From the NCBI RefSeq assembly GCF_003991155.1, contig NZ_CP031294.1: a stretch of DNA of 64,000 bases, one strand, 5' to 3'. Positions within the stretch are counted from its first letter, which is position 1. Each line of letters starts with the position of its first letter. Positions 26,307 through 55,425 of the stretch are shown here, piece by piece. The position numbers and the translations under genes are program-made. This stretch comes from Escherichia coli. Its GTDB lineage: Bacteria; Pseudomonadota; Gammaproteobacteria; Enterobacterales; Enterobacteriaceae. Below the pieces are notes generated by a model. That model searched no databases. It was not told the DNA's origin and was given only the letters and a program-made list of their open reading frames with translations.

Positions 26307-26510
26307 GATTAATTCCTTATCGTAAATAACAAATTGTTTTCTTGTTGGTGTTAATTATCGTTGTACGAATAAGGCGTCAAAGTGGAAAGTTGCGGTAGCC
26401 GGACGGGAACAGGTGGGTTTGTCGGTTGCCTGGAGGTAAGAGGTTGGTGTTTTTAGCCTGCGGGAAACAGGATGGTCATTTAAGGCCACCAGCATTGGTG
26501 GCCTTAATCT

Positions 26511-26791
26511 TTAGTGGAGCAGACCGATGTCGATGGTATCCCCTGAATCATCCACACGGATCATCAGCATGGCAAAGGCGTTTAGTGGATAGCTTGCGTG
26601 CCATTCAGGGAAGCGGTCATCTCGCATGAAGTCGGCAATGTCGTAAACGCATCCCTCAAAGTGGAAGAATCGCGTGCTTACCTGCTCGTCATAATCCACA
26701 TGATCCATTTCTTGCTGTTCTGTTTCCGGCAAGTCCAGCCATGATTCAAGAAATACATTTTGTGCTTTAGGGGTAATGGTGAAATCAGTCA
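26511..26791 (-). CDS. small highly acidic protein
   Basis: ~93 aa with ~19 Asp/Glu vs ~5 Lys/Arg; start at ATG 26789-26791 (ORF-track upstream extension runs through promoter motif). Confidence 0.5.
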
Positions 26792-27127
26792 TGAGCATAT
26801 CCTCACTGCGTAAACATGTTGTTTTCTTGTTGGTGTAATTATCGCAGTGTAGATAAGGCATAAAAGAAGTTAATACAGGCTGAATACACAAGAAAGGTTC
26901 TGGAAGTTGATAGCCAGGTTTCAAACTAACCTTCGGTTATTAAAAGTCATTTAAGACCACCAATGCTGGTGGCCTTAATAATTATCGCCCGATTACGCTA
27001 AGGATCTTTTCCTCAACTGATTTGTTGTTGCGACTAAACTGCCTTGCGTATCTGATGACAGAAGAGGCGTTTTGCTTTCTGACCATCTCGGCTCTTTCCT
27101 TCAGGCGTTTCTTGAAATCGCCCATAT

Positions 27128-27502
27128 TTACCACCAGGCGCAGAAGGTCAGTCTGTTATTGTGAAAGTCGTGGTTCTTAATCAGATCTTCCACAAGCTCT
27201 TTCAACTCCCCCACATCATGCCAGTAACCTTCATCGTACTCCTGACTGCCGAAGAAAAAACCTTCCCGGGTAGGCAAGTACTCTTCGCAATTACTTTCGT
27301 TTATGTGCATCAAATGAGCCTTCAGAAAACAAATGTCATTCATCGTTAATTCTAAAAGCTCACAATTTTCGACTTCACCTACGTTGCGCTCCATCCACCC
27401 AACGAGCGCATTGAACTTACGGAAGTAAGCAACCTGCTTTCTGGATGCCTCGTTATTCAGATCGTTTTTAGGCTGTGTCTCGATATAGATATCAAGTCCC
27501 AT
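27128..27502 (-). CDS. hypothetical early protein
   Basis: Start placed at ATG 27500-27502 (MGLDIYIETQ) with AAGGAA RBS. Confidence 0.45.
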   Translation of the reverse strand: MGLDIYIETQPKNDLNNEASRKQVAYFRKFNALVGWMERNVGEVENCELLELTMNDICFLKAHLMHINESNCEEYLPTREGFFFGSQEYDEGYWHDVGELKELVEDLIKNHDFHNNRLTFCAWW

Positions 27503-27619
27503 GATGGTTTCCTTATTAAGTTGCTTCAGTGAAATCATTTTCACAAATCAGATAAGGCAGAAAACAAATTGTTATCGGGCATAAGAAAATGGCGCGGTTT
27601 ACGCGCCATTCAAAGAGGA

Positions 27620-28015
27620 TTAAGCGAATACGCTTTCAGGGATTAAGGTGTCAGCAGGAATGCCGGAGGTAATGCGCAGGCCGTACTGACCAATCCAGGT
27701 AGTGTTGGTATTCAGGCTGGAGGCGAATACGGTGTTAACCATATTCATCATGGTTTCAAACACCTCTTCATCAACCTGGCGGAAGTAGTTCTCGATTTTC
27801 AGCAGCAGCGGGTCAGTTGCATCGAAAATAGACTGGTATTGAGTCGCGTACTCGCCGCCGGAGGCATCACCTTTACGCACGATCGTACTGGCCTGGACTT
27901 CGGCACCAGTTTCGGTGTTGTACGTAACAACGGTGATTTTTGCCACATTCTTACCTTCGGCGGTTTCAGAGGCATAGTAAACATCAACTGTCAGTTTTTC
28001 GCGTTTAACGGTCAT
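27620..28015 (-). CDS. hypothetical early protein
   Basis: Start placed at internal ATG (MTVKREKL) with GGAGAG RBS; terminator hairpin downstream at ~27572-27598. Confidence 0.45.
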   Translation of the reverse strand: MTVKREKLTVDVYYASETAEGKNVAKITVVTYNTETGAEVQASTIVRKGDASGGEYATQYQSIFDATDPLLLKIENYFRQVDEEVFETMMNMVNTVFASSLNTNTTWIGQYGLRITSGIPADTLIPESVFA

Positions 28016-28141
28016 TTCACTCTCCGTAGTGTTTTGGTTATTTTTATATTCTATGATCGTAAGTATGTACTTACAATACAAAAAAGCCCCGTAAGGATGG
28101 CGGGGCTGTCGTACTGTCGACTAATTACCACTTGCACATTA

Positions 28142-28453
28142 TCAGGCTATTGCCATCACTGATGCTCTCTGAATCTCTTGCTGGGCCACGCGGTTAACTT
28201 CCATCAAAGCCAGTTCGAGCTGATGTTCCGGCCACATTCTTTGAAATGCCACCCAGCCTTTTCCACGCTGGCGACGAACATTCATTACATAACGAGTAAA
28301 GGTGTATTTATCGAAAGACACCGCTGTTTCACGGAACAGACGAATAGAGGTTCCATTGGCAACGATGTCCAGCAAAGTTAATTGAGCAACCAGCGCAGGC
28401 TTCTCTTTTCTCTTCTGGTCTTTGTCCAGACCAAGAACCAATGATTTTTTCAT
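28142..28453 (-). CDS. hypothetical early protein
   Basis: Start at ATG 28451-28453 (MKKSLVLGL), GGAG RBS, motif-A leader at 28465-28490. Confidence 0.45.
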   Translation of the reverse strand: MKKSLVLGLDKDQKRKEKPALVAQLTLLDIVANGTSIRLFRETAVSFDKYTFTRYVMNVRRQRGKGWVAFQRMWPEHQLELALMEVNRVAQQEIQRASVMAIA

Positions 28454-28606
28454 CACAACTCCGTAAACAACTTGTTTTCTCAATGGCGTAAATAATACCA
28501 GTAAGAAAACGGCTACAAAGCATATTGATCAGGTGCATGAGCGATATGCAGGTTCTTCCCTGCGGCTATAGAGAAATTAAGCCAGCATTGCTGGCTTTGG
28601 TTAGGT

Positions 28607-28936
28607 TTACTCGAATACTTCAAGAAACTCCTGAACGTCCCAATGCTGGACAAGGTGAAGATAGACCTTAGAAATAACATCATTCTCGCTATCGCATGTG
28701 AAGTAGTACTTCTGGCTGCGGTTGTATGTGTCCACACAAAATTCGCTCATATCCATAAAGTCAGCATCTTCACCCATGTCGCAAATCATCAAAGCAGGTG
28801 CGTCATCACGAGTCATCAGCTCAAGCACCCACCGCGAATTGATCAGAGTGGAAGACCAACCTTCTAACTCATAAAACTGATCAAACTCTTTTTGAGTTAA
28901 TTTCTTGATTTGGTTGATGTCGATATTTGCAAACAT
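28607..28936 (-). CDS. hypothetical early protein
   Basis: Start at ATG 28934-28936 (MFANIDINQ), AGGA RBS, motif-A leader at 28948-28983. Confidence 0.45.
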   Translation of the reverse strand: MFANIDINQIKKLTQKEFDQFYELEGWSSTLINSRWVLELMTRDDAPALMICDMGEDADFMDMSEFCVDTYNRSQKYYFTCDSENDVISKVYLHLVQHWDVQEFLEVFE

Positions 28937-30490
28937 AAAGCAATCCTTAAACAACATGTTTTCTTGATGGTGTTATTATCGCAATAACGCACAGGTGAAA
29001 AAGGATTTTATTCCGGTGAATGTGGTTTTGGCAGTGAGTTTTCAGGTTCAGTACCGAGTACACTTTTTACATTATTCTGATTTAGTGGCCGAAGGTGGCT
29101 GGTGGGCAGAATAATCCTCTCCCCGAAAACCTACTGAAATCGATTGTGACCCGTTGGCTGTCTGGCACAATTACGCTGTAACTGGGCATTCAGAGGGAAT
29201 CCAGCGGTAAGTAAGTTCGCCTGCACGTGAGCGCCTCTCTTCTTCCCGCACATTACAGGTGGGTAGCCGCAACTCTCCCTCTCGCTATACCGGTACGCCG
29301 CCGTTCCTGAACCGGCATCGAGCCTTCTCCCGAAATCCACACAGGCAACTCGACCGTTTCCCTGAAAACCTCCAGCCGTTCCCCGAAGGCAACCCAGCCG
29401 TTTCTGTAGCGGGATGCAACCTTTTCCCTGTATGGACCGAAGGCTGACCGTAGGGGTGTTACGGGGGATAAAATCAGGAGTTGAATAAATACGAAAAAGG
29501 AGGCGACACCCCTCCTTCTCTCCCCACTTATACATACCTGGCTTCTTCGCTATACATGTTGTGTTTTATTCGTGTTTTATCTGTCTCAACCTCTCTATGG
29601 ACGTTAATACTCACTCCTTCCAGAACGTTCTATACGGCGACTAATTCTGTTGGTGAATTGGGTGTGTTGTTCTCTCTGTCGGTGTATGTGGTTTCGTTCG
29701 TTTTGCGGTGGTTCTTCTATGGGGTGTTCTCGTCGTTTTGGTGATTGTTCTTCTCCGTGTATGGAGTAATGGCAGGTGGGCGATTCCTTTCGTTATTGTG
29801 TTTGAGTTGTTTGTCTGGAGTGCGTGAAGGGCTTTTGTAGTTATTCGTGTGTTGGGTAATGGCGTTTCCCGTGATTGTTCTGTTTCGTGTCTTTTGGGAT
29901 TGAGAGAAACCTTGCGGTTACAGGCTTCGTTGGGGTTTCAGTGATTCTGGTGTTTCTTCGCTGTTTGGGTAATGGCGTGTCGTGGGTATCGCGCGTATGG
30001 AAGTTTCGAATTGCCTGTGAAAGTTAGGTTGGTTGTCCGGTAGCCTGAGAAGAAGAGGTGGGTCTTTTCGGTAGCCTGCCATAAAGAGGTTGGTTGTTTT
30101 TGGTAATGGCATATGTGTTATTTAGTTGTTTTGTTATGCCTGAAAATAAGTTGTTTATATGGTTATGTAACGCAACGGGAACGATTTTGAGCGTGTGTTT
30201 TTGTTGGTAGTGTGTTGGGTCGTCTGTGGTGAAAATTGGACGCTGTGGCGCTGTCTGCTGCGTAGAATTACGGGTATAAGCAGTGATGTGTGAAAACGTC
30301 AATTTTTTAGACCAAATCGGGTGAAAGCGTTGATGTTTCGTTGATCTGTTATTCAGTTGTTTTCTTATTGGTATAAACAACTGTAACCTATTGATATTTA
30401 AGGATGTGATTCCAGGCATGGAAGGGGAGTAGTGGCGATCAACGGATTCTTATAGAAAAGAATCAAATTGTGACCGCCATTATCAATGTT

Positions 30491-31225
30491 TTACTTAGTT
30501 TTGTTTAGCAGAGAGAGAATTTCATCACTAATTTCACTCGCCTGTTTGATAGCCAATGCAGTTACCTCTTCTATGGTTGGTGACTGTTGATGCTCATATT
30601 TGGTTTCGGTTATGACAATGTGTTCTTCACCAGAATTTGCGCATAGTGCCGCATTGACGATAAGGTTTGAGTAAGAATTTAGCAGAGCACTGTTGATGAA
30701 CGCTTTCACGGTATTACTGTCTGCACCAAATACATCTTTTCTGACCGCTTCAGCCTCACAGCGAACCCCTGCAGCAACATCGTGAAGAACATGTATGGCC
30801 TTGGAGCTTGTTTGTTCACAGTACTCAATCATTATTGTCGAATTGTTCTGTTCAACAAACGATCTGATGCCTGACGATTTACCCATAGCATCGAAGGCAG
30901 CGTGACCCGCACTAGTAGAGATATCTTCATAGAGTTCTTCATCGCTATCTTTTTCTTCAGGTGTCGAGGTGTCTTCATCGTCGTAATAGATATTGCCTTT
31001 AATCAGTGTCTTGGACACTTGATATAAACAATAAGAAACGAGATTTAAGCATTGGATTTTAGCTGTATTGTCCTTTGTCGCCTCGCTATTCAGTTCTTTC
31101 GCTTCTTCAGTAAGGCTGTTGATAAGACTTTGTATTTTTTCCAACGCGTTAGGTGCACACTCCGCGTTGTCCATAAAGAATTTATAACCAGTCCCAGGGA
31201 TTTCTAAACTTTTCAACTTTTTCAT
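30491..31225 (-). CDS. hypothetical protein (AT-rich gene)
   Basis: 244-aa ORF with ATG start; AT-rich composition distinct from neighbours. Confidence 0.45.
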   Translation of the reverse strand: MKKLKSLEIPGTGYKFFMDNAECAPNALEKIQSLINSLTEEAKELNSEATKDNTAKIQCLNLVSYCLYQVSKTLIKGNIYYDDEDTSTPEEKDSDEELYEDISTSAGHAAFDAMGKSSGIRSFVEQNNSTIMIEYCEQTSSKAIHVLHDVAAGVRCEAEAVRKDVFGADSNTVKAFINSALLNSYSNLIVNAALCANSGEEHIVITETKYEHQQSPTIEEVTALAIKQASEISDEILSLLNKTK

Positions 31226-31270
31226 TTCTTTGATAATCCTAAAAACAAACTACCAATGCTTTAATATCTG

Positions 31271-31570
31271 TTACCAGTTCCAGCACTCAAGCCCTTCAAC
31301 GACCGGCGCACCACAATCAAAATGTACAGAGTCAAAGCCTACATCAAGTACTTTCTGAATGTTAGCAATCGCGCCTTCGGATATACCATATCGACGCAAG
31401 TCCTCTTTCCAGACATCATCCTGTAACCCAGCGTGGACAATACAACCGCCGTCAATTTGTGAAACCCAATCCAGCTCATTGCTTGCGATCATGAATCGGC
31501 GAGCATCTTCCTCTGATGTATGAGATGAGCTGATCAATGCCACCTGGTAGGCTTGGGTAATGTTCAACAT
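31271..31570 (-). CDS. hypothetical early protein
   Basis: 99 aa, GGAG RBS, motif-A leader at 31583-31617. Confidence 0.45.
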   Translation of the reverse strand: MLNITQAYQVALISSSHTSEEDARRFMIASNELDWVSQIDGGCIVHAGLQDDVWKEDLRRYGISEGAIANIQKVLDVGFDSVHFDCGAPVVEGLECWNW

Positions 31571-31685
31571 TTCAACAACTCCGAAACAATTTGTTTTCTT
31601 ATGTGGCTTATTATCTCAATCAACAAAAGGTAGAAAACAAATTGTTTTAGGGTTTGTTAAAGTCAGAAGGGGTTGTGTCTATATG

Positions 31686-31716
31686 AAAATGCCCAGCGTG
31701 TTGCCGGGCATTGCGA
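31686..31716 (-). terminator. metG rho-independent terminator (candidate)
   Basis: On minus strand gcccggcaacacgctgggca hairpin followed by tttt, just after metG stop. Confidence 0.5.
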
Positions 31717-31731
31717 ACAGAGGTTGTTTAA

Positions 31732-33765
31732 TTACTTAACCTGGTGGCCTGGTTTAGCACCAGCATCCGGGCTTAACAGGAAGATATCTTTCCCGCCGGG
31801 GCCAGCAGCCATCACCATGCCTTCGGAGATACCGAAGCGCATTTTACGCGGAGCCAGGTTAGCCACCATAATGGTGTGACGACCAATCAGTGCCTGTGGG
31901 TCTGGATAAGCAGAACGGATGCCTGAGAAGACATTACGCTTTTCACCACCGAGATCCAGTGTCAGACGCAGCAGTTTGTCAGAACCTTCGACAAACTCCG
32001 CGTTTTCAATCAGCGCCACACGCAGGTCAACTTTGGCGAAGTCGTCAAAGGTGATGGTTTCCTGAATCGGGTCGTCAGCCAGTGGGCCAGTTACCGGTGC
32101 AGCTGTGGCTTTCACTTCTTCTTTGGATGCTTCCACCAGTGCTTCCACCTGTTTCATATCGATACGGTTATACAATGCCTTGAACGGATTCACTTTATGG
32201 CCCAGCAGCGGTTGCTGGATACCATCCCAGGTCAGTTCTGTATTCAGGAATGCTTCTGCACGTTCAGTCAGTTTCGGCAGTACCGGTTTCAAGTACGTCA
32301 TCAGCACGCGGAACAGGTTAATGCCCATAGAGCAAATCGCCTGCAGATCGGCATCGCGTCCTTCCTGCTTCGCCACCACCCACGGAGCCTGTTCATCGAC
32401 ATATCGGTTAGCCAGGTCAGCCAATGCCATGATTTCACGGATAGCTTTACCAAATTCGCGGCTTTCCCATGCTTCGCCAATCACTTCAGCGGCATCAGTA
32501 AAGGTTTTGTACAGTTGCGGGTCAGCCAGTTCGCTTGCCAGCACGCCGTCAAAACGCTTGTTGATAAAGCCTGCATTACGGGAGGCCAGGTTAACCACTT
32601 TGTTCACGATATCGGCATTCACGCGCTGAACGAAATCCTCCAGGTTGAGATCGATATCATCAATGCGCGAAGAGAGTTTCGCAGTGTAGTAGTAACGCAG
32701 GCTGTCGGCGTCAAAATGATTCAGCCAGGTGCTGGCTTTAATAAAGGTGCCGCGAGACTTGGACATCTTCGCGCCGTTCACCGTCACATAGCCGTGAACA
32801 AACAGGTTGGTCGGCTTGCGGAAGTTGCTGCCTTCCAGCATGGCAGGCCAGAACAGGCTGTGGAAGTAAACAATATCTTTACCGATGAAGTGGTACAGCT
32901 CGGCTGTGGAGTCTTTCTTCCAGTATTCATCGAAGCTGGTGGTATCGCCGCGCTTGTCGCACAGATTCTTGAAGGAACCCATGTAGCCAATCGGCGCGTC
33001 CAGCCAGACGTAGAAATATTTGCCCGGCGCGTTCGGAATTTCAAAACCGAAGTAAGGCGCATCGCGGGAGATATCCCACTGTTGCAGGCCGGATTCAAAC
33101 CACTCCTGCATTTTGTTCGCCACCTGCTCCTGCAACGCACCGCTGCGGGTCCATGCCTGCAACATTTCGCTGAAAGAGGGCAGATCAAAGAAGAAGTGTT
33201 CGGAATCACGCATTACCGGGGTAGCGCCAGAAACCACCGATTTCGGCTCGATCAATTCAGTCGGGCTATATGTTGCGCCGCAGACTTCACAGTTATCGCC
33301 GTATTGATCTGGCGCTTTACATTTCGGGCAGGTGCCTTTCACAAAACGATCCGGCAGGAACATGCCTTTTTCCGGGTCGTACAACTGAGAGATAGTGCGG
33401 TTTTTAATAAAACCGTTCTCTTTCAGGCGAGTATAGATAAGCTCAGACAGCTGGCGGTTCTCTTCGCTGTGCGTCGAGTGATAGTTGTCATAGCTGATGT
33501 TAAAGCCTGCGAAATCAGTCTGGTGTTCCTGACTCATTTCGCCAATCATCTGCTCCGGTGTGATACCAAGCTGCTGTGCTTTCAGCATGATCGGCGTACC
33601 GTGGGCATCGTCGGCACAGATGAAATTAACCTCGTGGCCGCGCATTCGCTGGTAACGAACCCAGACATCAGCCTGGATGTGCTCCAGCATATGGCCGAGG
33701 TGGATTGAGCCGTTAGCGTACGGCAGCGCGCACGTCACCAGAATTTTCTTCGCGACTTGGGTCAT
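31732..33765 (-). CDS. metG: methionyl-tRNA synthetase
   Basis: 677-aa product [29 protein letters not shown]... recalled as essentially E. coli MetG (HIGH motif, KMSKS, C-terminal tRNA-binding domain); start at ATG 33763-33765, ORF-track upstream extension rejected. Confidence 0.97.
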
Positions 33766-33922
33766 AGTAGGCATTACTTCTTTGTAGTGAAAAGGGGCTT
33801 GATAGTAACAAAATGGCCTTATGTCTGCCATGTGATAACAGCATTTCTCATAAATGATTAAATGTCGTAGCTGGAGTACACTACAAGGCGACAATTGCGC
33901 AAATTAAAATAAAGGAGACGGG

Positions 33923-35023
33923 ATGAGCGAGTCCAAATCGCCGGATGCCCTGAGAGCAATGGTAGCCGGTACGCTGGCTAATTTTCAGCACCCAACCCTG
34001 AAACACAACCTGACTACGCTTAAAGCGTTACACCATGTTGCGTTGATGGATGACACACTGCATGTCGAACTAATCATGCCTTTCGTGTGGAATAAGCCTT
34101 TTGAAGACCTGAAAGAGCAATGTAGTGGTGATCTGCTCCGTATCACTGGCGCAAAGGCTATTGACTGGAAGCTGTCGTACAACATTGCCACGCTTAAGCG
34201 CGTCAAAAACCAACCAGGCATTAATGGCGTTAAGAACATTATCGCCGTCAGCTCAGGCAAGGGCGGCGTGGGTAAATCCTCCACGGCGGTAAACCTGGCA
34301 CTGGCGTTGGCTGCTGAAGGTGCGAAAGTTGGTATTTTGGATGCCGATATCTATGGTCCATCAATTCCAACCATGCTGGGCGCGGAAAACCAACGTCCAA
34401 CCTCACCTGACGGTACTCACATGGCACCTATCATGTCTCATGGCCTGGCAACCAACTCTATTGGTTATCTGGTCACCGACGACAATGCAATGGTGTGGCG
34501 TGGACCGATGGCCAGCAAGGCGCTGATGCAGATGTTGCAGGAAACTCTATGGCCTGATCTGGACTATCTCGTTCTCGATATGCCGCCGGGCACTGGTGAT
34601 ATTCAGTTGACGCTGGCGCAGAACATTCCTGTAACTGGTGCGGTTGTGGTAACTACGCCGCAAGACATCGCGCTGATCGATGCGAAGAAAGGCATTGTGA
34701 TGTTCGAAAAAGTCGAAGTGCCGGTACTGGGTATCGTCGAAAACATGAGTGTGCATATTTGCAGTAACTGCGGTCATCACGAGCCAATTTTTGGCACCGG
34801 TGGCGCACAGAAACTGGCCGAGAAATACAACACGCAGTTGTTAGGCCAAATGCCACTTCATATCTCTCTTCGTGAAGATCTGGATAACGGAACACCAACC
34901 GTTATTAGTCGTCCAGATAGCGAATTTACGGCTATTTATCGTGACCTCGCAGATCGCGTTGCCGCCCAAATGTATTGGCAAGGTGAAGTAATACCTGGCG
35001 AAATCGCATTCCGCGCAGTGTGA
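33923..35023 (+). CDS. apbC: Fe-S cluster carrier ATPase ApbC/Mrp
   Basis: 366 aa; P-loop SSGKGGVGKSSTAVNLALALA; CxxC motif ICSNCGHHEP; divergent from metG as in Escherichia chromosome. Confidence 0.95.
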   Translation: MSESKSPDALRAMVAGTLANFQHPTLKHNLTTLKALHHVALMDDTLHVELIMPFVWNKPFEDLKEQCSGDLLRITGAKAIDWKLSYNIATLKRVKNQPGINGVKNIIAVSSGKGGVGKSSTAVNLALALAAEGAKVGILDADIYGPSIPTMLGAENQRPTSPDGTHMAPIMSHGLATNSIGYLVTDDNAMVWRGPMASKALMQMLQETLWPDLDYLVLDMPPGTGDIQLTLAQNIPVTGAVVVTTPQDIALIDAKKGIVMFEKVEVPVLGIVENMSVHICSNCGHHEPIFGTGGAQKLAEKYNTQLLGQMPLHISLREDLDNGTPTVISRPDSEFTAIYRDLADRVAAQMYWQGEVIPGEIAFRAV

Positions 35024-35059: not shown

Positions 35060-35449
35060 CTACATCACGGGACAATCATCAAACTCGCCACTTCTTGCGT
35101 CGTTGATAATGTGAGTGATCACACCAAACACGGCATTGCTGCCCGTGCATCCATCGTCATCCTTTGGCAATGCTTCCTTCTTACCGGTTCTTAAATCCTC
35201 CAGATGCTGACGTGGGTACTTCCGGTATCTTTTTACGCGATATTCCCCATCCAGAGCGCATACAAGCAGAGAACCATCAACCGGGGTAAGTGAGGAATCG
35301 ACCACCAGCAATGCACCCTGTAATATTCCCTCACGATGATGACTATCAGCTGCCCTCATGAAGTAGGTCGCTGAAGGATGTCTAATTATCTGCTGATCAA
35401 GAGAAATACGGCTCTCAGCATAATCCGCCGCAGGAGAAGGGAAGCCCAT
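35060..35449 (-). CDS. UmuD/ImpA-like S24 peptidase (translesion synthesis accessory), orphan
   Basis: FPSPAADYAE...HPSATYFMRA...VDGEYRVKRY...AVFGVITHII aligns with UmuD; no umuC-like gene follows. Confidence 0.7.
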   Translation of the reverse strand: MGFPSPAADYAESRISLDQQIIRHPSATYFMRAADSHHREGILQGALLVVDSSLTPVDGSLLVCALDGEYRVKRYRKYPRQHLEDLRTGKKEALPKDDDGCTGSNAVFGVITHIINDARSGEFDDCPVM

Positions 35450-35467: not shown

Positions 35468-35487
35468 TACTGTTTATCCATACAGTA
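35468..35487. promoter_or_regulatory. LexA (SOS) box
   Basis: tactgtttatccatacagta = CTGT-N8-ACAG palindrome, 19 bp upstream of umuD-like start. Confidence 0.7.
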
Positions 35488-36151: not shown

Positions 36152-37710
36152 ATGAAAATGACAAGTATTCAACAACGTGCAGAGCTTCATCGCCAGATCT
36201 GGCAAATTGCTAACGATGTCAGGGGTTCAGTCGATGGATGGGATTTTAAGCAGTACGTTTTGGGCGCGCTTTTTTACCGTTTTATCAGCGAAAATTTTTC
36301 CAGTTATATTGAAGCCGGTGATGACAGTATCTGTTATGCGAAACTGGATGACAGCGTAATTACTGATGACATTAAAGACGATGCCATCAAAACTAAAGGC
36401 TACTTCATCTACCCCAGTCAGCTTTTCTGCAACGTAGCTGCGAAAGCAAATACTAATGACAGACTGAATGCAGATTTAAACAGCATCTTCGTTGCTATCG
36501 AAAGTTCTGCTTACGGTTATCCTTCAGAAGCTGACATCAAAGGTTTGTTTGCTGATTTCGATACCACCAGTAACCGCCTGGGTAACACCGTTAAAGATAA
36601 AAATGCCCGCTTGGCTGCGGTTCTGAAAGGGGTTGAAGGGCTAAAACTTGGTGACTTCCATGAACATCAGATTGACCTGTTCGGTGACGCCTATGAGTTC
36701 CTGATTTCTAACTATGCGGCGAATGCCGGTAAGTCCGGCGGCGAGTTCTTTACACCGCAGCACGTCTCTAAGCTGATTGCACAACTGGCTATGCACGGGC
36801 AGACCCACGTTAACAAAATCTACGACCCGGCAGCAGGCTCCGGTTCGCTGTTGTTGCAGGCGAAAAAACAGTTTGATGACCATATCATCGAAGAAGGTTT
36901 TTTTGGTCAGGAAATCAACCATACGACCTATAACCTGGCGCGTATGAACATGTTTTTGCACAACATCAACTACGACAAGTTTGATATCAAGCTGGGTAAT
37001 ACACTGACTGAGCCGCACTTCAGAGATGAAAAACCGTTTGATGCCATCGTTTCTAACCCGCCGTATTCGGTGAAATGGATTGGCAGCGATGACCCGACGC
37101 TGATTAACGATGAACGTTTTGCCCCGGCTGGCGTTCTGGCCCCCAAATCCAAAGCTGACTTTGCGTTTGTATTACATGCGCTGAACTATCTTTCGGCCAA
37201 AGGTCGCGCTGCGATTGTCTGCTTCCCAGGCATTTTTTACCGTGGCGGCGCGGAGCAGAAAATCCGTCAGTATCTGGTCGACAATAACTATGTCGAAACC
37301 GTGATTTCACTGGCACCGAATCTGTTCTTTGGCACCACTATTGCCGTCAATATTCTGGTGCTGTCTAAACATAAAACGGATACCAAAGTTCAGTTTATTG
37401 ATGCCAGCGAACTGTTCAAAAAAGAGACTAACAACAACATTCTGACCGATGCTCATATCGAACAGATTATGCAGGTATTTGCCAGCAAGGAAGATGTTGC
37501 TCATCTGGCGAAATCTGTTGCGTTTGAGACTGTTGTCGCGAATGACTATAACCTGTCGGTGAGCAGCTATGTGGAAGCGAAAGATACTCGCGAAATTATC
37601 GATATCGCTGAGCTGAATGCTGAGCTGAAAACCACGGTCAGCAAAATCGACCAGTTGCGTAAAGATATTGATGCGATTGTTGCTGAGATTGAAGGTAGCG
37701 AGGTACAGGC

Positions 37711-37714
<4 letters not shown>
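36152..37714 (+). CDS. hsdM: Type I restriction-modification methyltransferase subunit (Type IC, EcoR124 family)
   Basis: 520 aa; N-terminus [26 protein letters not shown] recalled as EcoR124-family HsdM; AdoMet motif [10 protein letters not shown]; NPPY catalytic motif. Confidence 0.95.
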
Positions 37715-38970
<1,256 letters not shown>

Positions 38971-39091
38971 TTGACCATTGCTACCGACCGGATCACCTTA
39001 ACATCCGGTCTATATAGAGACTATTTTTTACACGCCGGAAGTCGCCCTTAAAGCCCTTCCGGCCCTTGCCAGACGGCACAAAGGATGCGCT

Positions 39092-42000: not shown

Positions 42001-42208
42001 AGAAGAAAATCTCAATGAAGAGGCGGCGAAACGCTATATTCGCACGTCTTTAAAACGCGAATACGCCACCGAAAATGGCACAGAATTAAACGAGACATTA
42101 CCAAAACTTAGTCCGTTAAACCCGCAATATAAAACGAAAAAACAGACCGTTTTCCAGAAAATCGTCACGTTTATTGAAAAGTTCAAAGGAGTAGGTGGGC
42201 AGATATAG
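39092..42208 (+). CDS. hsdR: Type I R-M restriction endonuclease/translocase subunit
   Basis: 1038 aa, same length as EcoR124I HsdR; SF2 helicase motifs (GSGKT, FDECH), N-terminal nuclease region. Confidence 0.95.
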
Positions 42209-43813: not shown

Positions 43814-44383
43814 TCAATTAGAGCTTTGAAAGACTTTGTGTGGTTGTGTTGCGAGGTTATGTCGATGGCTTAACTCACGCATCATGTCTTCAAGGCGACT
43901 CTTTGTGTCGTCGAGTTGGTCGGCCATTGCTCCCAAAAGCTGACGAACGGCCATAGGATCATCGCTGTTTAGTGATGGCATTTTATAACCCGCCTGAGAA
44001 GACATAAGATTGAACGCAGACATCAACATCGTTAGAGAGGATTTAAGCCCAGCAATTTCACGATCTTTGCTGGCAATAATCGTCTCACTCTTGTTAGTGT
44101 CATCAGTTCGTTGAGTCTCGCTCACCATATCCAAAGTCGCCTGCAACTTATCAGCGCGCTCTTTTTCAGCAAGATAATGAACACCGAAATGATGTGCTAA
44201 AGCTACAACCTGAGTTGGCTCTTCAAAGGTGGACTCAAAATTAAGTGCTGTAACCACTCTCTCAAATATGGAAACGTCTTCTATTCCTCGAAGAATGGCT
44301 AACATTTTGACCAGTTCATTAGCATCCATTTCTTCGAATAAGGCGTTTTGTTCATCAGCTATCGCTTTGCATTTCTTGCACAT
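43814..44383 (-). CDS. hypothetical early protein
   Basis: 189 aa; conserved RBS context AGGAAAAACACATG; motif-A leader at 44401-44435. Confidence 0.5.
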   Translation of the reverse strand: MCKKCKAIADEQNALFEEMDANELVKMLAILRGIEDVSIFERVVTALNFESTFEEPTQVVALAHHFGVHYLAEKERADKLQATLDMVSETQRTDDTNKSETIIASKDREIAGLKSSLTMLMSAFNLMSSQAGYKMPSLNSDDPMAVRQLLGAMADQLDDTKSRLEDMMRELSHRHNLATQPHKVFQSSN

Positions 44384-44680
44384 GTGTTTTTCCTAATTCT
44401 TAAACAAGTTGTTTTCTTATTGGCTTTATTGTGATGTGGCATAAAAGGGGAGCAAGCTAAACGTAAAGGTGCAAACTCTCTATTTCGGTCAACGAAACAC
44501 AAGGGCCATTTGGCCCTTGTTATTAACACGTTGCTTTACGGACTAGCGGATAAGCGAAGTAGATCGCCAGACCAATGAGGACGCCATCAGAAATGACAGA
44601 CATCATCTTTCCCGTAAAATCCACCAACACCGCCATCACCAGAAGAGCAATGACGATCACAAGCCGGAATCTCTCAAGCA

Positions 44681-45106
44681 TTAGAGATAAGCATCCAGTG
44701 ACAACTGAAGCGCCTGGGCGATCTTTTTCAGTGCCTGCTCTTCTTGTTCACCAATGCCATCCTGATCGGCAATATCAAGGCACAGACACAGAACATCGAC
44801 CGCCTCTGGAGTACCCGCAATATCAGACAGCTCACGAATAGCCTGTGCATTAGCAGAACGAGGGGACGCTTCGTAACGAGCACGGATATTGGCGCTCATT
44901 TGGGCAATTTCACCAGCAAACGGAGAAAACGCAGGCAGAGCTGCAATTGTCTTCTCAAGAATGGCAATTTCTTTTGCGTCACATGTGCCGTCGGCATAGG
45001 AGATCATGTACGCGCCCCACACGGTGGCCTCAACCGCATCACGGTTCTCCATTTTTTTGACTTCGATAACTGCTTTACGAGTTTTCTTTTTGAAGAAACC
45101 TAACAT
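44681..45106 (-). CDS. hypothetical early protein (possible TerB-like fold)
   Basis: 141 aa; conserved RBS context; motif-A leader at 45128-45160; TerB assignment is weak pattern recognition only. Confidence 0.4.
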   Translation of the reverse strand: MLGFFKKKTRKAVIEVKKMENRDAVEATVWGAYMISYADGTCDAKEIAILEKTIAALPAFSPFAGEIAQMSANIRARYEASPRSANAQAIRELSDIAGTPEAVDVLCLCLDIADQDGIGEQEEQALKKIAQALQLSLDAYL

Positions 45107-45199
45107 GTGTTTTCCTTTTGTTATTTGTCAAAACAAGTTGTTTTATAGTTTCATAAATTGCTTACGCAAAGATGGTCAATGCATATGCACTAACAGCCG

Positions 45200-47469: not shown

Positions 47470-47550
47470 AAAATCGATTTTAAAGCGTCTGGGAAGGGGT
47501 TCTAGTGGATTCTGTAGTGGTGTTCAGGTCTGGGAGTCTCTGATATAAAA

Positions 47551-47610
47551 CAGCCTGCTTCCGTATATTAATAATTAATATGTAGTTATTTATATATACA
47601 GAAGCAGGCT
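47551..47610. promoter_or_regulatory. hairpin-flanked AT-rich intergenic element (copy 2)
   Basis: agcctgcttccgtatat ... atatatacagaagcaggct; near-identical to 17257-17316. Confidence 0.5.
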
Positions 47611-50362: not shown

Positions 50363-50423
50363 TTTTTATCCTTAACCCATTTTGAGAGTTTTATTGTCGC
50401 AATGTCGAAGAGGCGAACAATTT

Positions 50424-51954: not shown

Positions 51955-51955
51955 A

Positions 51956-53059
51956 TCACACCGCCACTGGAACCTTGATCCACGGTAGAGGGTCATAGCC
52001 AAGAATTAAAACCTCGTCCCATTTGAAATCATCCAACTCTGACCATTCATGAGGGAAAATAACGACCGGATCTGAATGCTCTGGAGCCTGTCGTTTCATT
52101 AGCTCACACACACCTTCCATGTGGTTGTTGTACAAATGCACGTCAAAGCCAAAATGCACAAATGCACCGGCCATGTGACCCGTAATCTTCGCGAGAAAAT
52201 GAGTGAGAATGCCATAGCCAGCAATATTGAATGGCATACCAACAAAAGTGTCTACGCTACGCTGTACGAGGCAGGAGTTGAGGATGCGTTTGGGGATTCC
52301 AAGTTCATCCAGTTCAGCTTCAGTAACACTGCCGTCCATATCCAGATCGTATAGCATCTTGGTGTAGATAGACTCGTAACCGAGGCGACTGTGTTGAAGA
52401 CCAATGTCAGTTGCCATCGTTAAACGGGTTTCAAAATCCAGCTCACGACTCCACAAAGAGAAGACAAAGTGGCAAGGTGGCAGTTTCATATCCTCAAGCT
52501 CGCCTACGTTCCATGCGTTAAGCATGATGCGACGATCGGTAGGGTTCGTGCGCAGTGTATCGACAATACGCTGTAGCTGATCGATTTCACGGGACAGCAC
52601 TACGCGATCTTCACTGATACCCAGGTATCCCTCGACTTTGTACCCGCGTTCACGGAAAGTAGCGATCTTGCTCAGATATTCACTATGGCTCACGATGCGG
52701 GTATCTTCCCATCGACGCCACTGCTTACCGTAAACCGGCCCCAAATCGCCATTCTCATCGGCCCATGCATCCCAAATCTTAACGCCGTTATCCTTGAGAA
52801 ATTGGATGTTGCCCGTGCCTTTCAGATACCACTCAAGTTCGACAAGTAGTGGCTTAAGATTTACCGCCTTTCCAGAAATAAGCGGCACAGTCCCACCAGT
52901 AAGCATGTAGTAAGAGGGAACGTAGCAGGTGCTTAAAGTACCAGTGCCTGTGCGATCATCAGCCTGCACGCCGCTTTTAAGCACCGTCTCAATAACTTTT
53001 GCATACGATGCGTTTGTTACCTGACCGTTCGTATGCTCTCGATTCAAAAGGAGTGACAC
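51956..53059 (-). CDS. thyA: thymidylate synthase (ThyA family) with two insertions
   Basis: DRTGTGT, IWDAWADENGDLGPVYGKQWR, catalytic PPCH, PFNIAGY motifs; GTG start; 367 aa vs ~264 aa for E. coli ThyA. Confidence 0.9.
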   Translation of the reverse strand: MSLLLNREHTNGQVTNASYAKVIETVLKSGVQADDRTGTGTLSTCYVPSYYMLTGGTVPLISGKAVNLKPLLVELEWYLKGTGNIQFLKDNGVKIWDAWADENGDLGPVYGKQWRRWEDTRIVSHSEYLSKIATFRERGYKVEGYLGISEDRVVLSREIDQLQRIVDTLRTNPTDRRIMLNAWNVGELEDMKLPPCHFVFSLWSRELDFETRLTMATDIGLQHSRLGYESIYTKMLYDLDMDGSVTEAELDELGIPKRILNSCLVQRSVDTFVGMPFNIAGYGILTHFLAKITGHMAGAFVHFGFDVHLYNNHMEGVCELMKRQAPEHSDPVVIFPHEWSELDDFKWDEVLILGYDPLPWIKVPVAV

Positions 53060-53229
53060 AAAAACCTCACAAAGATAAGTAATTACTTATTCATCGTGTG
53101 AGTTTACATTCATTGAGAGAACAAGACCAGACAGATAAAAAAATGGTGGCCATAGGCCACCAAAACGAATAGTCATTCCAGAGTTTTATTACGCATGTTA
53201 AATATACACAGATAGATAACTACCTACAA

Positions 53230-54099
53230 TTATTTTTTGATCATTCCGTACATTGCTGAGGCTTTAGCTTGCTCAACAAAGGAGGATAAATCGACATCAC
53301 TATAGGTTGGAGACTTCAGAATCTTTCCATCGGAAATTCGAAAACCGATCATCTTATCGGTGCCATCAGCATGGCGGAATCCCAGATCTGAAGAGTCGTA
53401 TTTGCAGTTGGCCACAGCCTGGCGACGTTCCTCAACATCAGCAGGCCATAATTTTGTCATGTTAGACCGATGAATTTCGCCAACCAGCTCGACGACATTG
53501 ATACCGAGGAAATCAGCCAGTCGATAAGTCATCATGCACGCCACATAGATTTTGTTCATTACACGGCGCAGTTCCTGAATCAGCTCAGAATCCTTAACAG
53601 TCTTCTTCTCAAGTTTATCTGCCAGCTCTTCGAGCATACATGACGCCTCACGAGCTTCCTGAAATGGCATTGCCATATCATCGAAAACAGTGTTACCGGG
53701 CACAAAAATTGTCTGCATAAAGCGATCAATGCTCTGTTCCTGCGTGTAATAGGTCATGCCGGTAGAAATACCACCTTTGATGGCGACCATCGTACCAACA
53801 CCAACGTATAAAAAGTCGGCCATTGCATCCAGCAGTTGCTCAATATCCCCATTCATTGCGGCTGGAATACCTTCCACTACAGCTTCTTCATGAATCAGGC
53901 TTGCACGGAGACGAAGCAGCTCTGGTGTCGGCATAACGCGTCTCGGATGCTGGAAGAGTTCATGAAACTGATCGACCATCTTGTAAATACTTTCAGTGGC
54001 TACACCATGGCCTTCATGCAACTCATATGGTTCTGGCTTAAATCCAATGAGTCGATCGGTGGCAAGTTTCAGGTGGTCAGTCAGTTTGGTAAAGTTCAT
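53230..54099 (-). CDS. MazG-like nucleotide pyrophosphohydrolase domain protein (candidate)
   Basis: EExxE...DxxD pattern (LIHEEAVVEG...DIEQLLDAMAD); start moved to ATG 54097-54099 with AAGGA RBS. Confidence 0.4.
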   Translation of the reverse strand: MNFTKLTDHLKLATDRLIGFKPEPYELHEGHGVATESIYKMVDQFHELFQHPRRVMPTPELLRLRASLIHEEAVVEGIPAAMNGDIEQLLDAMADFLYVGVGTMVAIKGGISTGMTYYTQEQSIDRFMQTIFVPGNTVFDDMAMPFQEAREASCMLEELADKLEKKTVKDSELIQELRRVMNKIYVACMMTYRLADFLGINVVELVGEIHRSNMTKLWPADVEERRQAVANCKYDSSDLGFRHADGTDKMIGFRISDGKILKSPTYSDVDLSSFVEQAKASAMYGMIKK

Positions 54100-54176
54100 G
54101 CTAGTTTTGTTCCTTCTTAATTCTTGTGATCCATTGTGGCCCAGCGTTGCCAGGCCACATAATGCTTTGTATCGGT

Positions 54177-55319
54177 TTACAGGTCTGCAAACTGGCTTAG
54201 AGAAGCCTTGTCCACGGTAGAATCGATCTGACCTACCAGATATGTGCTTTGCTCTGCCTCTTGTGGTGCAATTTGCAGTGTGTCGGTTAACAACCACTTG
54301 TTCATCCAGACCAGCGGATCAGTGGTAACTTCTGGAAATAAAGCCTTCAGGCCAAGACGATTCATAGCCAGATTGGTTCGGTATTTTACATAGGTCTTCA
54401 GAATATCCGCGTTTAAACCAATCATCGAACCGTCTTTGAAGAGATAGTCTGCCCAGTTCATTTCTTGTTCGGCGACTGATTTCATGGTGTCGTAAATGAC
54501 GTTTTCTTCATCAGCAGCAATCTCTTTCCACAATAAACCTTCGCGACCGGTACGCATGAAGCGGATCATGCGTTCAGTTCCTTCGCAATGCAGAGCTTCA
54601 TCACGGGCAATAAAGCGCATAATTTTGGTGTTACCCTCAAGCAACTTCCGTTCGCCAAAGGCAAACGTACATGCAAAACTTACATAGAAACGGATCGCCT
54701 CAAGCGCATTAATGGACACTAACGTGCGGAAAAGCTGACGGTGCAAAGGATATGGCTCCCAGCCATATTCATTTACGTACAGACGCTCAAATTCCTTCTC
54801 GCCTAACGACTGGCGATCGCAGGTCATCCCATAAAGCCTGTCATATTCAGCAGAGATACTGATGGCTCGGTTGATGATTTCTTCATCCGTAACAATACCG
54901 TCAAAAACAATACTCGGATCGTCCACCATGCCACGAATAATGTGGGTGTAGCTGCGGCTATGGATAGTCTCAGAGAAAGACCACGTTTCAACCCACGTTT
55001 CCAGTTCAGGAATAGAGATAAGCGGCAGCAGAGTTGCGTTTGGGCTACGTCCCTGAACTGAATCGAGCAACGTTTGATAACGGAGATTACTCAGGAAAAT
55101 GTGGCGTTCGTGGTCCCGCAGCTTCGTATTGAAGTCGATGCGATCGCTCGAAATATCAACTTCTTCCGGCCGCCAGAAGAAAGACAATTGACGTTCAATC
55201 AACTTTTCAAAATCACGGTATTTTTGTTGATCGTAACGAGCCACGTTGACAGATTGTCCGAGGAACATAGGCTCTTTGGTTGCATCATTAGCACCCAAAC
55301 GGAACGTTGAATATGACAT
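54177..55319 (-). CDS. nrdB: ribonucleotide reductase class Ia beta subunit
   Basis: 380 aa, strongly similar to E. coli NrdB ([20 protein letters not shown]..., C-terminal YLVGQIDS). Confidence 0.95.
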
Positions 55320-55425
55320 GTGTTTTTCCTTTTTCTTTTTTGGTGCGTTTAAACAGGTTGTTATCTTATGTGTTTAAACAAGGCTTACAAATCAAAGAGA
55401 AGGTGGGGATATCCCCCACCATATG

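What the first reader, a model, noticed from the sequence alone, without database searches (positions are those of the whole stretch)
26326..55380. Conserved palindromic leader motif (AAACAA-N-TTGTTTTCTT...) shared by at least ten early genes
Copies at about 26326-26362, 26811-26846, 27556-27585 (variant), 28465-28490, 28948-28983, 30353-30385, 31583-31617 (plus partial 31632-31648), 44401-44435, 45128-45160 and 55347-55379 (nrdB). On the coding strand it lies ~20-40 nt upstream of the start codon, next to a conserved RBS context (AGGAAAAACACATG in three genes). This implies a common operator or mRNA hairpin regulon.
Basis: seen in the sequence. Interest (0 to 1): 0.55.

Follow-up and report, generated by a model that had tools for sequence, protein, structure and literature searches.

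The report
Dispersed palindromic operator of a phage-plasmid
A 13-bp palindrome (AAACAA-N-TTGTTT) sits at the start of about twenty promoters of an SSU5-type phage-plasmid and is most likely the binding site of a still-unidentified repressor, giving a first handle on how this clinically common family of plasmid-prophages keeps its genes silent.

Summary
The pattern is far above chance (14 hits against 1.2 expected).

The window is an SSU5-type phage-plasmid, 98% identical to Escherichia phage Cyrano. The unit is AGA-AAACAA-N-TTGTTT. It lies either about 9-10 nt downstream of a GATAAT-like, often TG-extended, -10 hexamer (centre near +14), or inverted over the -35 region (centre near -38). Paired copies are always exactly 51 or 25 bp apart.

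About 20 copies per genome recur at orthologous promoters in Cyrano and SSU5 (terS, parA, dnaB, cobT, nrdB, small-gene cassettes); Klebsiella relatives keep them at the two promoters examined (parA, dnaB). Flanks and the centre base vary.

The arms show no compensatory variation, the RNA hairpin is worth 0 to -0.7 kcal/mol in most copies, and some copies lie outside the transcript. It therefore behaves as a protein-binding DNA operator, not an mRNA hairpin. In published Cyrano lysogen RNA-seq the motif-headed genes are silent, except the moderately expressed parA operon.

The binder is unidentified; the ParA-adjacent protein CYRAN_29 is the best guess. Closest analogues are the P1 C1 operator network, KorB/OB and the N15 dispersed centromeres. 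A second dispersed palindrome (ATAAGTAAGTACTTACTTAT) marks other promoters.

The parts
17207..17226 (-). Class I site, terS leader op1 (CAGAAAACAAGTTGGTTAGC). The right arm is weak in all relatives.
   Evidence: It is conserved in the terS leaders of 71 related loci while the 9-nt spacer to op2 varies. Its centre is exactly 25 bp from the op2 centre.
17182..17201 (-). Class I site, terS leader op2 (CAGTAAACAAGTTGTTTTAG).
   Evidence: The arms are invariant in 23 of 23 distinct relatives.
17164..17183 (-). GC hairpin AGAGCGCATGGACGCGCTCT followed by GTGTGTTTT, lying between the operators and the terS ATG (17144). It looks like a leader terminator or attenuator.
   Evidence: Cells are 98.6% paired, one pair changes on both sides (GC to AU in 2 sequences), and two pairs show wobble changes. 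The leader has z = -1.9 to -2.4.
26324..26343 (-). Class I site (AAGAAAACAATTTGTTATTT) downstream of GATAAT (26354-26359), 21 nt before the ATG of gene 25824-26306 (CYRAN_111 homolog).
26809..26828 (-). Class I site (AAGAAAACAACATGTTTACG) downstream of TGcGATAAT (26838-26846). The gene is 26511-26792 (CYRAN_110 homolog).
   Evidence: In some relatives the same promoter also has the upstream inverted copy 51 bp away.
27558..27577 (+). Class I site in inverted orientation, centred about 38 bp upstream of the start predicted from GAAAAT (27537-27542, - strand). The gene is 27128-27502 (CYRAN_108 homolog).
   Evidence: It has the same N16 spacing to the -10 hexamer as the upstream copy at 31631-31650.
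28462..28481 (-). Class I site (GAGAAAACAAGTTGTTTACG) downstream of TGgTATTAT (28492-28500). The gene is 28142-28453 (CYRAN_106 homolog).
28946..28965 (-). Class I site (AAGAAAACATGTTGTTTAAG) downstream of TGcGATAAT (28975-28983). The gene is 28607-28936 (CYRAN_105 homolog).
   Evidence: The PHROG match starts at residue 8 of the longer ORF, so the true start is the ATG at 28936.
30140..30159 (+). Class I site with one arm mismatch (CTGAAAATAAGTTGTTTATA) at the head of a non-coding region.
   Evidence: The orthologous SSU5 site is a perfect GAAAACAACTTGTTT.
30347..30366 (-). Half-site only (AAGAAAACAACTGAATAACA), within the inverted repeat CAGTTGTTT(30355-30363)-N12-AAACAACTG(30376-30384).
31581..31600 (-). 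Class I site (AAGAAAACAAATTGTTTCGG) downstream of TGaGATAAT (31610-31618). The gene is 31271-31570 (CYRAN_101 homolog).
31631..31650 (+). Second, inverted class I site of the same promoter, centre exactly 51 bp from the first, over the -35 region.
   Evidence: The 51-bp pairing recurs in Cyrano, at two SSU5 promoters and in other relatives.
44399..44418 (-). Class I site (AAGAAAACAACTTGTTTAAG), 19 nt before the ATG of gene 43814-44383 (CYRAN_87 homolog).
45128..45147 (-). Class I site (TATAAAACAACTTGTTTTGA) upstream of the tciA-like gene 44681-45106.
55348..55367 (-). Class I site, variant AAGATAACAACCTGTTTAAA, upstream of nrdB (54177-55319).
   Evidence: SSU5 keeps the same GATAACA variant at nrdB, with a different centre and different flanks.

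Best explanation
The motif is a DNA operator. It is an asymmetric 16-17-bp site, AGA-AAACAA-N-TTGTTT-(a), bound by a sequence-specific, probably dimeric, DNA-binding protein encoded by the phage-plasmid. About twenty copies sit on sigma-70-type promoters, many of the extended -10 type.

Most copies lie 9-10 nt downstream of the -10 hexamer, so the palindrome covers about +8 to +20 (centre near +14, a geometry like lac O1). Others lie inverted over the -35 region (centre near -38). Some promoters have both, 51 bp apart, with the extended arms facing inward. A protein bound there would block RNA polymerase binding or promoter escape, and paired sites would allow cooperative binding or looping.

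The regulon covers the accessory small-gene cassettes, nrdB, tciA, dnaB, cobT, the terS leader and parA. It is kept off in the plasmid-prophage state.

Shown: the sites, their statistics, geometry and spacing, their conservation, the lack of RNA-type variation, and the silence of the target genes in a lysogen.

Inferred: the transcription starts, that binding represses, and who binds.
For: Enrichment: 14 hits against 1.2 expected. Intergenic bias: P about 1e-9.

Conservation: about 20 sites each in Cyrano and SSU5 at orthologous promoters despite 81% identity over 65% coverage (PMC9928086). The same site is at parA and dnaB in two Klebsiella-type lineages.

Logo from 153 unique sites: arms 84-99% conserved, centre base free, and the AGA extension not mirrored.

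Spacing: distances between neighbouring sites are only 25 bp (19 variants) or 51 bp (7 variants at two different promoters).

Promoter placement: a -10-like hexamer peaks 14-15 nt upstream of the core in 42 of 130 oriented variants, 28 of them with a TGn extension.

terS leader footprint: both sites are conserved, the spacer is free, and one lineage has the two sites fused into one.

Against RNA: compensated arm changes are at chance level, 19 of 464 against about 3.7% expected. The hairpin is worth 0 to -0.7 kcal/mol in most copies, -1.9 at most. There is no Rfam family.

Expression: in the lysogen RNA-seq, motif-headed genes score 5.7-25.5 against a median background of 9.8 (PMC9928086 S1 table).
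Against: No transcription start has been mapped, so the +14 and -38 positions rest on predicted -10 hexamers. The simple TTGACA/TATAAT scanner does not call these promoters. At parA, dnaB, cobT and nrdB the -10 assignment is uncertain.

No binder has been identified. Pfam, NCBIfam, PDB sequence search, AlphaFold and Foldseek gave nothing decisive for the candidates.

Genes without the motif are equally silent in the lysogen, so silence does not prove that this site is responsible. The parA operon carries the site yet is expressed 5-9 fold above background in the lysogen, which is odd for a pure lytic-gene repressor.
Confidence: 0.65

Rival explanations
1. The sites are primarily dispersed centromere or partition sites. 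They would be bound by the small protein encoded next to the type Ib ParA (CYRAN_29 family), as with the four scattered IR sites of N15 or the KorB/OB sites of RK2. Promoter repression would then be a secondary or coupled effect.
For: The parA promoter carries one copy, and no repeat array is found near the par operon.

The parA operon is the only motif-headed unit that is on in the lysogen (50-89 against 9.8), which looks like autoregulation.

The CYRAN_29 family keeps an invariant KSRTMS-EDE...RFTRSDVIRAAI core down to 47-52% identity. Elements encoding such diverged homologues, and one still more distant (P0049), keep the palindrome at parA. The one relative with a changed core (KGRMVS) lacks the palindrome at parA.

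The N15 precedent of single dispersed IR centromere sites comes from PMC7205306.
Against: A ribbon-helix-helix or any other DNA-binding fold for CYRAN_29 is not confirmed. There is no Pfam hit, no PDB hit, and a low-confidence model.

A different composite inverted repeat (GACCTGCWTCTGTATATA...) lies directly after the par operon and is an equally good centromere candidate.

The covariation evidence is a single short contig. The sites are tied to promoter geometry, which a pure centromere does not need.
Confidence: 0.15
2. The binder is a lytic-cycle regulator rather than the lysogeny repressor. It would be a Cro-like early shut-off or timing factor made after induction, for example the wHTH-like CYRAN_123 encoded just upstream of the terS sites. 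The promoters would be silent in lysogens for another reason.
For: CYRAN_123 is present in all 45 full-length relatives at 83-100% identity and sits next to the tandem terS sites. It gives weak Sta1/Lrs14-type HTH hits. The regulon mixes accessory, replication and packaging promoters.
Against: Promoters with good TG-extended -10 elements should fire in the lysogen unless something represses them there. CYRAN_123 is at background in the lysogen (7.8). There are no time-course data.
Confidence: 0.1
3. The motif acts in the mRNA leader as the target of an RNA-binding translational repressor. The conserved FljA-family protein (window 22854-23456; CYRAN_114 / SSU5_121) is the obvious candidate, because FljA proteins prevent translation of fliC mRNA.
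For: The protein is a full-length PF03614 match at E = 1e-80 and is present in all 45 full-length relatives. Most copies lie between the predicted start and the SD, in a fixed orientation. FljA-type proteins are reported to act on fliC mRNA translation (PMC2652032).
Against: The E. coli fliC 5' region shows no AAACA-N3-TGTTT. Inverted copies at about -38 lie outside the transcript. The exact 51-bp and 25-bp spacing points to DNA geometry. terS op1 and op2 differ in their arms in a way that suits half-site strength, not an RNA motif.
Confidence: 0.06
4. A self-folding mRNA hairpin in the leader controls stability or translation.
For: Its palindromic nature and its position just upstream of the SD.
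Against: The stem is worth 0 to -0.7 kcal/mol in most copies, -1.9 at most, and leader z-scores are not significant. Conservation extends the symmetry to a 1-nt centre. There are no compensatory changes. One op1 position is unpaired in 22 of 22 relatives. There is no Rfam match.
Confidence: 0.02
5. There is no trans-factor. The similarity is only common descent of a duplicated promoter-leader cassette.
For: Several cassette promoters share extra homology outside the palindrome (GCCTTAT-N9-GATAAT, ACACCAAC) and similar terminators.
Against: The same 13-bp core occurs at unrelated promoters (parA, dnaB, cobT, nrdB, terS). It is kept across genera while flanks and the centre diverge, in both orientations.
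Confidence: 0.02

Closest known systems
Bacteriophage P1 C1 repressor and its dispersed operators (my own knowledge of P1 biology; the P1 genome paper is cited in PMC11652158)
   Same: Both are plasmid-prophages with one short operator sequence scattered over the genome at many separate promoters. This places unlinked lytic and accessory operons under one regulator.
   Different: The P1 operator is a 17-bp asymmetric sequence, ATTGCTCTAATAAATTT. It is absent here, with 0 hits at up to 3 mismatches. No C1 homologue is annotated in Cyrano or SSU5. This site is palindromic, and it also sits on the partition operon and on the packaging-gene leader.
IncP/RK2 global regulons: KorB with OB (13-bp palindrome TTTAGCSGCTAAA) and KorA with OA (PMC4889941 abstract; details from my own knowledge)
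   Same: A 13-bp palindrome repeated a dozen or more times on one replicon, at varied positions relative to promoters, co-regulating replication, partition and other functions.
   Different: The OB sequence is absent. The ParB homologues here (CYRAN_119 and 120) are silent in the lysogen. The host element is a phage-plasmid, not a conjugative plasmid.
N15 SopB and its four dispersed IR centromere sites (PMC7205306)
   Same: Both are phage-plasmids with single palindromes scattered through the genome rather than a tandem centromere array.
   Different: N15 has four sites with a different, GC-rich sequence, a type Ia SopA/SopB system, and a demonstrated partition role. Here there are about 20 sites, a type Ib ParA, and no demonstrated role.
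lac O1 type 'operator at the start site' repression (textbook knowledge)
   Same: The operator is centred 11-14 bp downstream of the predicted start, with an auxiliary operator at a helically phased distance.
   Different: The protein family is unknown. The auxiliary site is only 51 bp away and covers the -35 region.

Membership tests
Dispersed prophage-repressor operator network (P1 C1 type) | Many copies of one operator at separate promoters across the genome | tested here: met
   About 20 intergenic sites each in Cyrano and SSU5 and 13 in the window.
Dispersed prophage-repressor operator network (P1 C1 type) | Operator overlaps the RNA polymerase binding site or start site | tested here: inconclusive
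   A -10-like hexamer peaks 14-15 nt upstream of the core in 42 of 130 variants, 28 with TGn. No transcription start is mapped, and the generic scanner does not call these promoters.
Dispersed prophage-repressor operator network (P1 C1 type) | Target genes off in the lysogen | tested here: met
   Motif genes score 5.7-25.5 against a background of 9.8; parA is the exception at 50 (PMC9928086).
Dispersed prophage-repressor operator network (P1 C1 type) | C1 consensus ATTGCTCTAATAAATTT | tested here: not met
   0 hits at up to 3 mismatches.
Dispersed prophage-repressor operator network (P1 C1 type) | C1-family repressor gene present | not tested
   None is annotated in Cyrano or SSU5. No C1 sequence was compared.
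KorB/OB global regulon | OB palindrome TTTAGCSGCTAAA | tested here: not met
   1 hit at 2 mismatches against 1.35 expected.
KorB/OB global regulon | ParB-family regulator expressed in the plasmid state | tested here: not met
   CYRAN_119 and 120 score 5.0 and 9.5, which is background.
Ribbon-helix-helix centromere-binding global regulators (omega, ParG type) | Small type Ib ParA followed by a small partner gene | tested here: met
   ParA is 221-229 aa with CbiA/MipZ/ParA hits, followed by a 115-146-aa gene.
Ribbon-helix-helix centromere-binding global regulators (omega, ParG type) | Partner has a ribbon-helix-helix fold | tested here: inconclusive
   No Pfam or PDB hit. The AF2 model has pLDDT 63 with residues 1-47 disordered followed by helices, and Foldseek finds nothing. 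The only support is a by-eye signature (SRTMS strand, TRSDVIRAAI helix).
Ribbon-helix-helix centromere-binding global regulators (omega, ParG type) | Binding sites are arrays of short repeats at the par promoter | tested here: not met
   There is a single palindrome at parA and no array.
cis-regulatory RNA hairpin or leader | Stable structure with compensatory variation | tested here: not met
   The stem is worth 0 to -0.7 kcal/mol in most copies, -1.9 at most. Compensated changes are at chance level. The arms never covary and op1 is permanently mismatched. There is no Rfam hit.
FljA / fliC-leader translational repression | FljA-family protein encoded | tested here: met
   PF03614 at E = 1e-80; window homologue at 22938-23453.
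FljA / fliC-leader translational repression | Target resembles the fliC 5'-UTR and lies within the mRNA | tested here: not met
   The fliC leader lacks the motif. Copies at about -38 are outside the predicted transcript.
LexA/SOS box | CTGT-N8-ACAG consensus | tested here: not met
   The motif differs. The only LexA-like box in the window is at 35468-35487, upstream of humD.

The most novel reading that the evidence does not exclude
The small protein encoded next to ParA (the CYRAN_29 family, an orphan family found only in SSU5-type elements) binds the palindrome. It would serve both as the partition adaptor and as the global silencer of about 20 phage promoters, so that plasmid segregation and maintenance of the prophage state are run by one protein through dispersed sites. 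A second, independent palindrome (class II) would define a second regulon.
Probability: 0.15. Interest if true: 0.75.

Novelty: new member of a known kind. Interest (0 to 1): 0.5.

Why it matters
SSU5/pHCM2/pKpn-type phage-plasmids are common in clinical E. coli, Salmonella and Klebsiella and often carry resistance genes. In the papers I could search, no regulator of their lysis-lysogeny decision is described, and the motif string appears in no paper.

A defined operator with about 20 copies and two fixed geometries gives a direct experimental handle. The repressor could be found by DNA pull-down. Promoters that respond to the element's state are available for reporters. It also allows a test of whether partition and immunity are coupled.

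The principle itself, a dispersed operator regulon on a plasmid-prophage, is already known from P1 and RK2.

Tried and rejected
1. RNA hairpin: rejected by energies, absence of covariation and no Rfam family.

2. FljA link: I recalled a fliC leader that resembled the motif. The real fliC 5' region shows my recollection was wrong, and there is no similarity.

3. CYRAN_98, annotated 'LexA-like peptidase', as repressor: it is HumD/UmuD-like, with its own LexA box.

4. CYRAN_45, annotated 'putative repressor': it was not found in the first 100 kb of SSU5's 103-kb genome although SSU5 has the motif, and it appears to belong to an integrase island next to tRNA genes.

5. CYRAN_117 (lysogen-expressed, looks RHH-like by eye): its putative DNA-facing strand residues vary (Y/H/S/N/K and A/Q/K/P) while the motif is invariant. 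There is no Pfam or PDB hit and the AF2 model has pLDDT 51.

6. P1 C1 and KorB operator consensus sequences: absent.

7. Exact-pattern scan of viral contigs: swamped by single chance matches and not informative.

8. Covariation between the CYRAN_29 family and the motif: both are invariant in all well-sampled lineages. The only hint is one 3.8-kb contig with a changed protein core and no palindrome.

9. Generic sigma-70 scanner: it does not detect the promoters, because their -35 elements are weak.

Full report
CONTEXT. The window is not a T5-like or other virulent phage. It belongs to an SSU5-type phage-plasmid. Window 26000-32000 is 98% identical to Escherichia phage Cyrano (pLF82 of E. coli LF82) and more distantly related to Salmonella phage SSU5 and to Klebsiella phage-plasmids. 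Genes between 26 and 57 kb run on the - strand, so the motif has to be read as its reverse complement.

OBSERVATION. AAGAAAACAANNTGTT with up to 2 mismatches gives 14 hits against 1.22 expected, and 0 of 100 shuffles reach that number. AAACAANTTGTTT with up to 2 mismatches gives 18 against 7.0. The 30353-30385 copy is only a half-site embedded in another inverted repeat. The 27556 and 31632 copies are complete sites in the opposite orientation. In the complete Cyrano genome, 17 of 25 hits with up to 1 arm mismatch lie in the 13.9% that is intergenic (P about 1e-9). Two of the 'genic' hits lie inside the 5' ends of annotated CDSs, upstream of the start codons I infer from SD spacing.

ANATOMY. 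I built a logo from 153 unique sites collected from the window, Cyrano, SSU5 and 71 TerS-anchored relatives.
- The logo reads A(-3) G(-2) A(-1) | AAACAA n TTGTTT | a.
- The arms are 84-99% conserved and the centre base is free.
- The AGA extension has no mirror image, so each site is intrinsically asymmetric.

Two geometries recur.
- (a) A GATAAT or TATTAT hexamer, often preceded by TGn, then 9-10 nt, then AAGAAAACAAnTTGTTTA, then 12-32 nt containing the SD, then ATG.
- (b) The inverted site, AACAAnTTGTTTTCT, then 16 nt, then GAWAAT.

With a start 7 nt after the hexamer, geometry (a) puts the palindrome at about +8 to +20 (centre +14) and geometry (b) puts the centre at about -38. A strictly defined -10-like hexamer ends 14-15 nt before the core in 42 of 130 oriented variants, 28 of them with a TG extension, and this is the highest peak in the positional profile. 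Where two sites are neighbours, the centre-to-centre distance is always exactly 51 bp (7 sequence variants at two non-orthologous promoters) or exactly 25 bp (terS leader, 19 variants). No other distance below 120 bp occurs. In the 51-bp pairs the AGA-extended arms face each other across the promoter.

CONSERVATION. Cyrano and SSU5, which share 81% identity over 65% coverage (PMC9928086), each have about 20 sites at corresponding places. These are two before terS, then parA, dnaB, cobT, nrdB, tciA or neighbouring genes, and the array of single-gene cassettes. At nrdB both genomes keep the unusual GATAACA left arm, while the centre and the downstream leader differ. In 23 distinct terS leaders the two sites are conserved and the 9-nt spacer between them is free. 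One lineage has the two sites fused into one. Two Klebsiella-type lineages keep the site at parA and dnaB. The same core therefore occurs at promoters that share no other similarity, which excludes mere cassette duplication.

DNA OR RNA?
- The conserved symmetry leaves a 1-nt centre, so a hairpin could use only 5 A-U-rich pairs. The computed energy is 0 to -0.7 kcal/mol in most copies, -1.9 at most. Whole leaders are no more structured than shuffles, except the terS leader, which owes its structure to a separate GC hairpin.
- Double arm changes that preserve complementarity are at the chance rate: 19 of 464, or 4.1%, against about 3.7% expected.
- In the terS alignment, op2 never varies and op1 carries a position that is unpaired in 22 of 22 sequences. 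The neighbouring GC hairpin shows a both-sides change and wobble changes, which makes it an internal positive control.
- The copies at -38 lie outside the predicted transcript.
- Rfam finds nothing.

The element therefore behaves as a protein-binding DNA site.

EXPRESSION. The published LF82 transcriptome (PMC9928086, S1 table) gives a Cyrano median background of 9.8 for an overnight LB culture. First genes behind a class I site score as follows: terS 7.1, dnaB 21, cobT 7.8, CYRAN_58 5.7, nrdB 12.9, tciA 7.0, CYRAN_87 7.1, CYRAN_93 6.3, CYRAN_101 7.5, 105 12.8, 106 12.2, 108 5.7, 110 6.7 and 111 25.5. The only exception is the parA operon (50, 89, 55). Promoters with good extended -10 elements that are nevertheless silent fit repression, but genes without the motif are silent too. 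Cyrano is induced 39-fold by ciprofloxacin (same paper).

WHO BINDS? This is not resolved.
- Excluded or unlikely: HumD and CYRAN_45, which was not found in the 100 kb of SSU5 searched.
- The annotated 'transcriptional repressor' (CYRAN_114 / SSU5_121; window 22938-23453) is a full-length FljA-family protein (PF03614, E = 1e-80). FljA proteins prevent fliC mRNA translation (PMC2652032), which revived an RNA-level reading. However, the real fliC leader has no such motif (my first recollection of that leader was wrong), and the DNA-type evidence above argues against it.
- CYRAN_123 (88 aa, weak wHTH hits) is highly conserved but not expressed in the lysogen.
- CYRAN_117 is lysogen-expressed, but its putative DNA-reading residues vary.
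- CYRAN_29 is the best circumstantial candidate. It is the 119-aa gene overlapping the end of a 222-aa type Ib ParA. Its operon is the one motif-headed unit that is on, which looks like autoregulation. Its family occurs only in these elements: 18 proteins in 1.8 billion representatives. A KSRTMS-EDE...RFTRSDVIRAAI core is invariant down to 47-52% identity, and elements encoding diverged homologues keep the palindrome at parA. The one relative with a changed core lacks the palindrome.
- Against CYRAN_29: no DNA-binding fold could be confirmed. A different composite inverted repeat lies just after the par operon and could equally be its target.

COMPARISON. Functionally this looks like the P1 C1 operator network, the KorA/KorB regulons of RK2, or the dispersed SopB sites of N15 (PMC7205306). 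The sequences of those systems are absent. The start-site position resembles lac O1. I found no description of this motif or of any SSU5-family regulator in the searchable literature. It is therefore a new member of a known kind.

SECOND MOTIF. A k-mer census of intergenic DNA revealed another dispersed palindrome, about ATAAGTAAGTACTTACTTAT.
- TARGTA-N2-TACYTA gives 15 hits against 0.13 expected, and the N6 version gives 11 against 0.2.
- The looser scan finds 26 sites in Cyrano, 23 in SSU5 and 18 in the window, many at corresponding gene junctions.
- It marks other units: junctions inside the structural operon, nrdA, thyX, a methyltransferase, CYRAN_107 (where it sits between TTGTAA and TAGAAT), and the ParB/UvsW divergent region.

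LIMITS. Transcription starts, binding and repression are inferred, not shown. The lysogen data come from the 98%-identical Cyrano, not from the window's own element. The candidate-binder argument is circumstantial.

Noticed in passing
window 1742, 8243, 11818, 13734, 15241, 20532, 28060, 46023, 48238, 53076, 53213, 57788, 62472 (start positions): A second dispersed palindrome family, about ATAAGTAAGTACTTACTTAT (TARGTA-N2/N6-TACYTA). It gives 15 hits against 0.13 expected and is also abundant in Cyrano (26 sites) and SSU5 (23 sites). It marks promoters or junctions that lack the class I motif: the structural operon, nrdA, thyX, a methyltransferase and CYRAN_107. It may be a second regulon or a second promoter class.
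   Followed up: partly
window 17164-17183 (- strand): A GC hairpin plus T-run lies between the terS operators and the terS start codon, with compensatory and wobble changes across relatives. It is probably a leader terminator or attenuator, which would imply antitermination control of the packaging/structural operon.
   Followed up: partly
window 22854-23456 (+): A conserved full-length FljA-family protein (Pfam PF03614, 'repressor of phase-1 flagellin') is encoded by this phage-plasmid family. It might silence host flagellin as a lysogenic-conversion function.
   Followed up: partly
window about 17250-17310 and 47550-47610; Cyrano 31157-31213, 78.1 kb and 108.35 kb: A composite inverted repeat, GACCTGCWTCTGTATATA-[class II-like core]-TATATACRGAAGCAGGYC, occurs three times. 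One copy is just after the par operon and one is just upstream of terS. It is a candidate centromere or packaging-related site.
   Followed up: no
window 29494-30130 (- strand): A non-coding stretch of about 600 nt, CA-rich on the - strand. It has four GCCATTAC repeats (GGTAATGGC/AGTAATGGC on the + strand) spaced about 90-135 nt apart and ends at a strong terminator (29494-29520). Class I sites or half-sites lie at its head. There is no Rfam match. It could be a non-coding RNA or an origin-like region.
   Followed up: partly
window 26480-26507, 26951-26978, 28579-28597: Near-identical terminator hairpins (TTAAGGCCACCAGCATTGGTGGCCTTAA and variants) follow the small genes. Each small gene is therefore its own promoter-operator-gene-terminator cassette.
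   Followed up: no
window 36152-42208 (+): A type I restriction-modification island (hsdM, an hsdS-like gene, hsdR) replaces the Ea22/Eae-like genes found at this position in Cyrano.
   Followed up: yes
window 31732-33894 (-) and 33923-35023 (+): Full-length metG (methionyl-tRNA synthetase) and apbC/mrp are arranged divergently. From memory, the E. coli chromosome has the same arrangement, which would suggest a captured host locus.
   Followed up: partly
window 35468-35487: A strong LexA-box-like sequence, TACTGTTTATCCATACAGTA, lies immediately upstream of the humD (UmuD-like) gene 35060-35449. It is the only such box in the window.
   Followed up: partly
window 44381-44394, 55317-55330, 62356-62369 (- strand); near-variant at 45104-45115: An identical translation-initiation context, AGGAAAAACACATG, occurs at three gene starts, with similar versions at many others in Cyrano and SSU5. 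It is independent of which palindrome class heads the gene.
   Followed up: partly
Cyrano 60.2-62.4 kb (beyond or at the window's right end): Clusters of TATCCACTGTAG / TATCCACTATAG repeats flank repA. They are probably RepA iterons.
   Followed up: no
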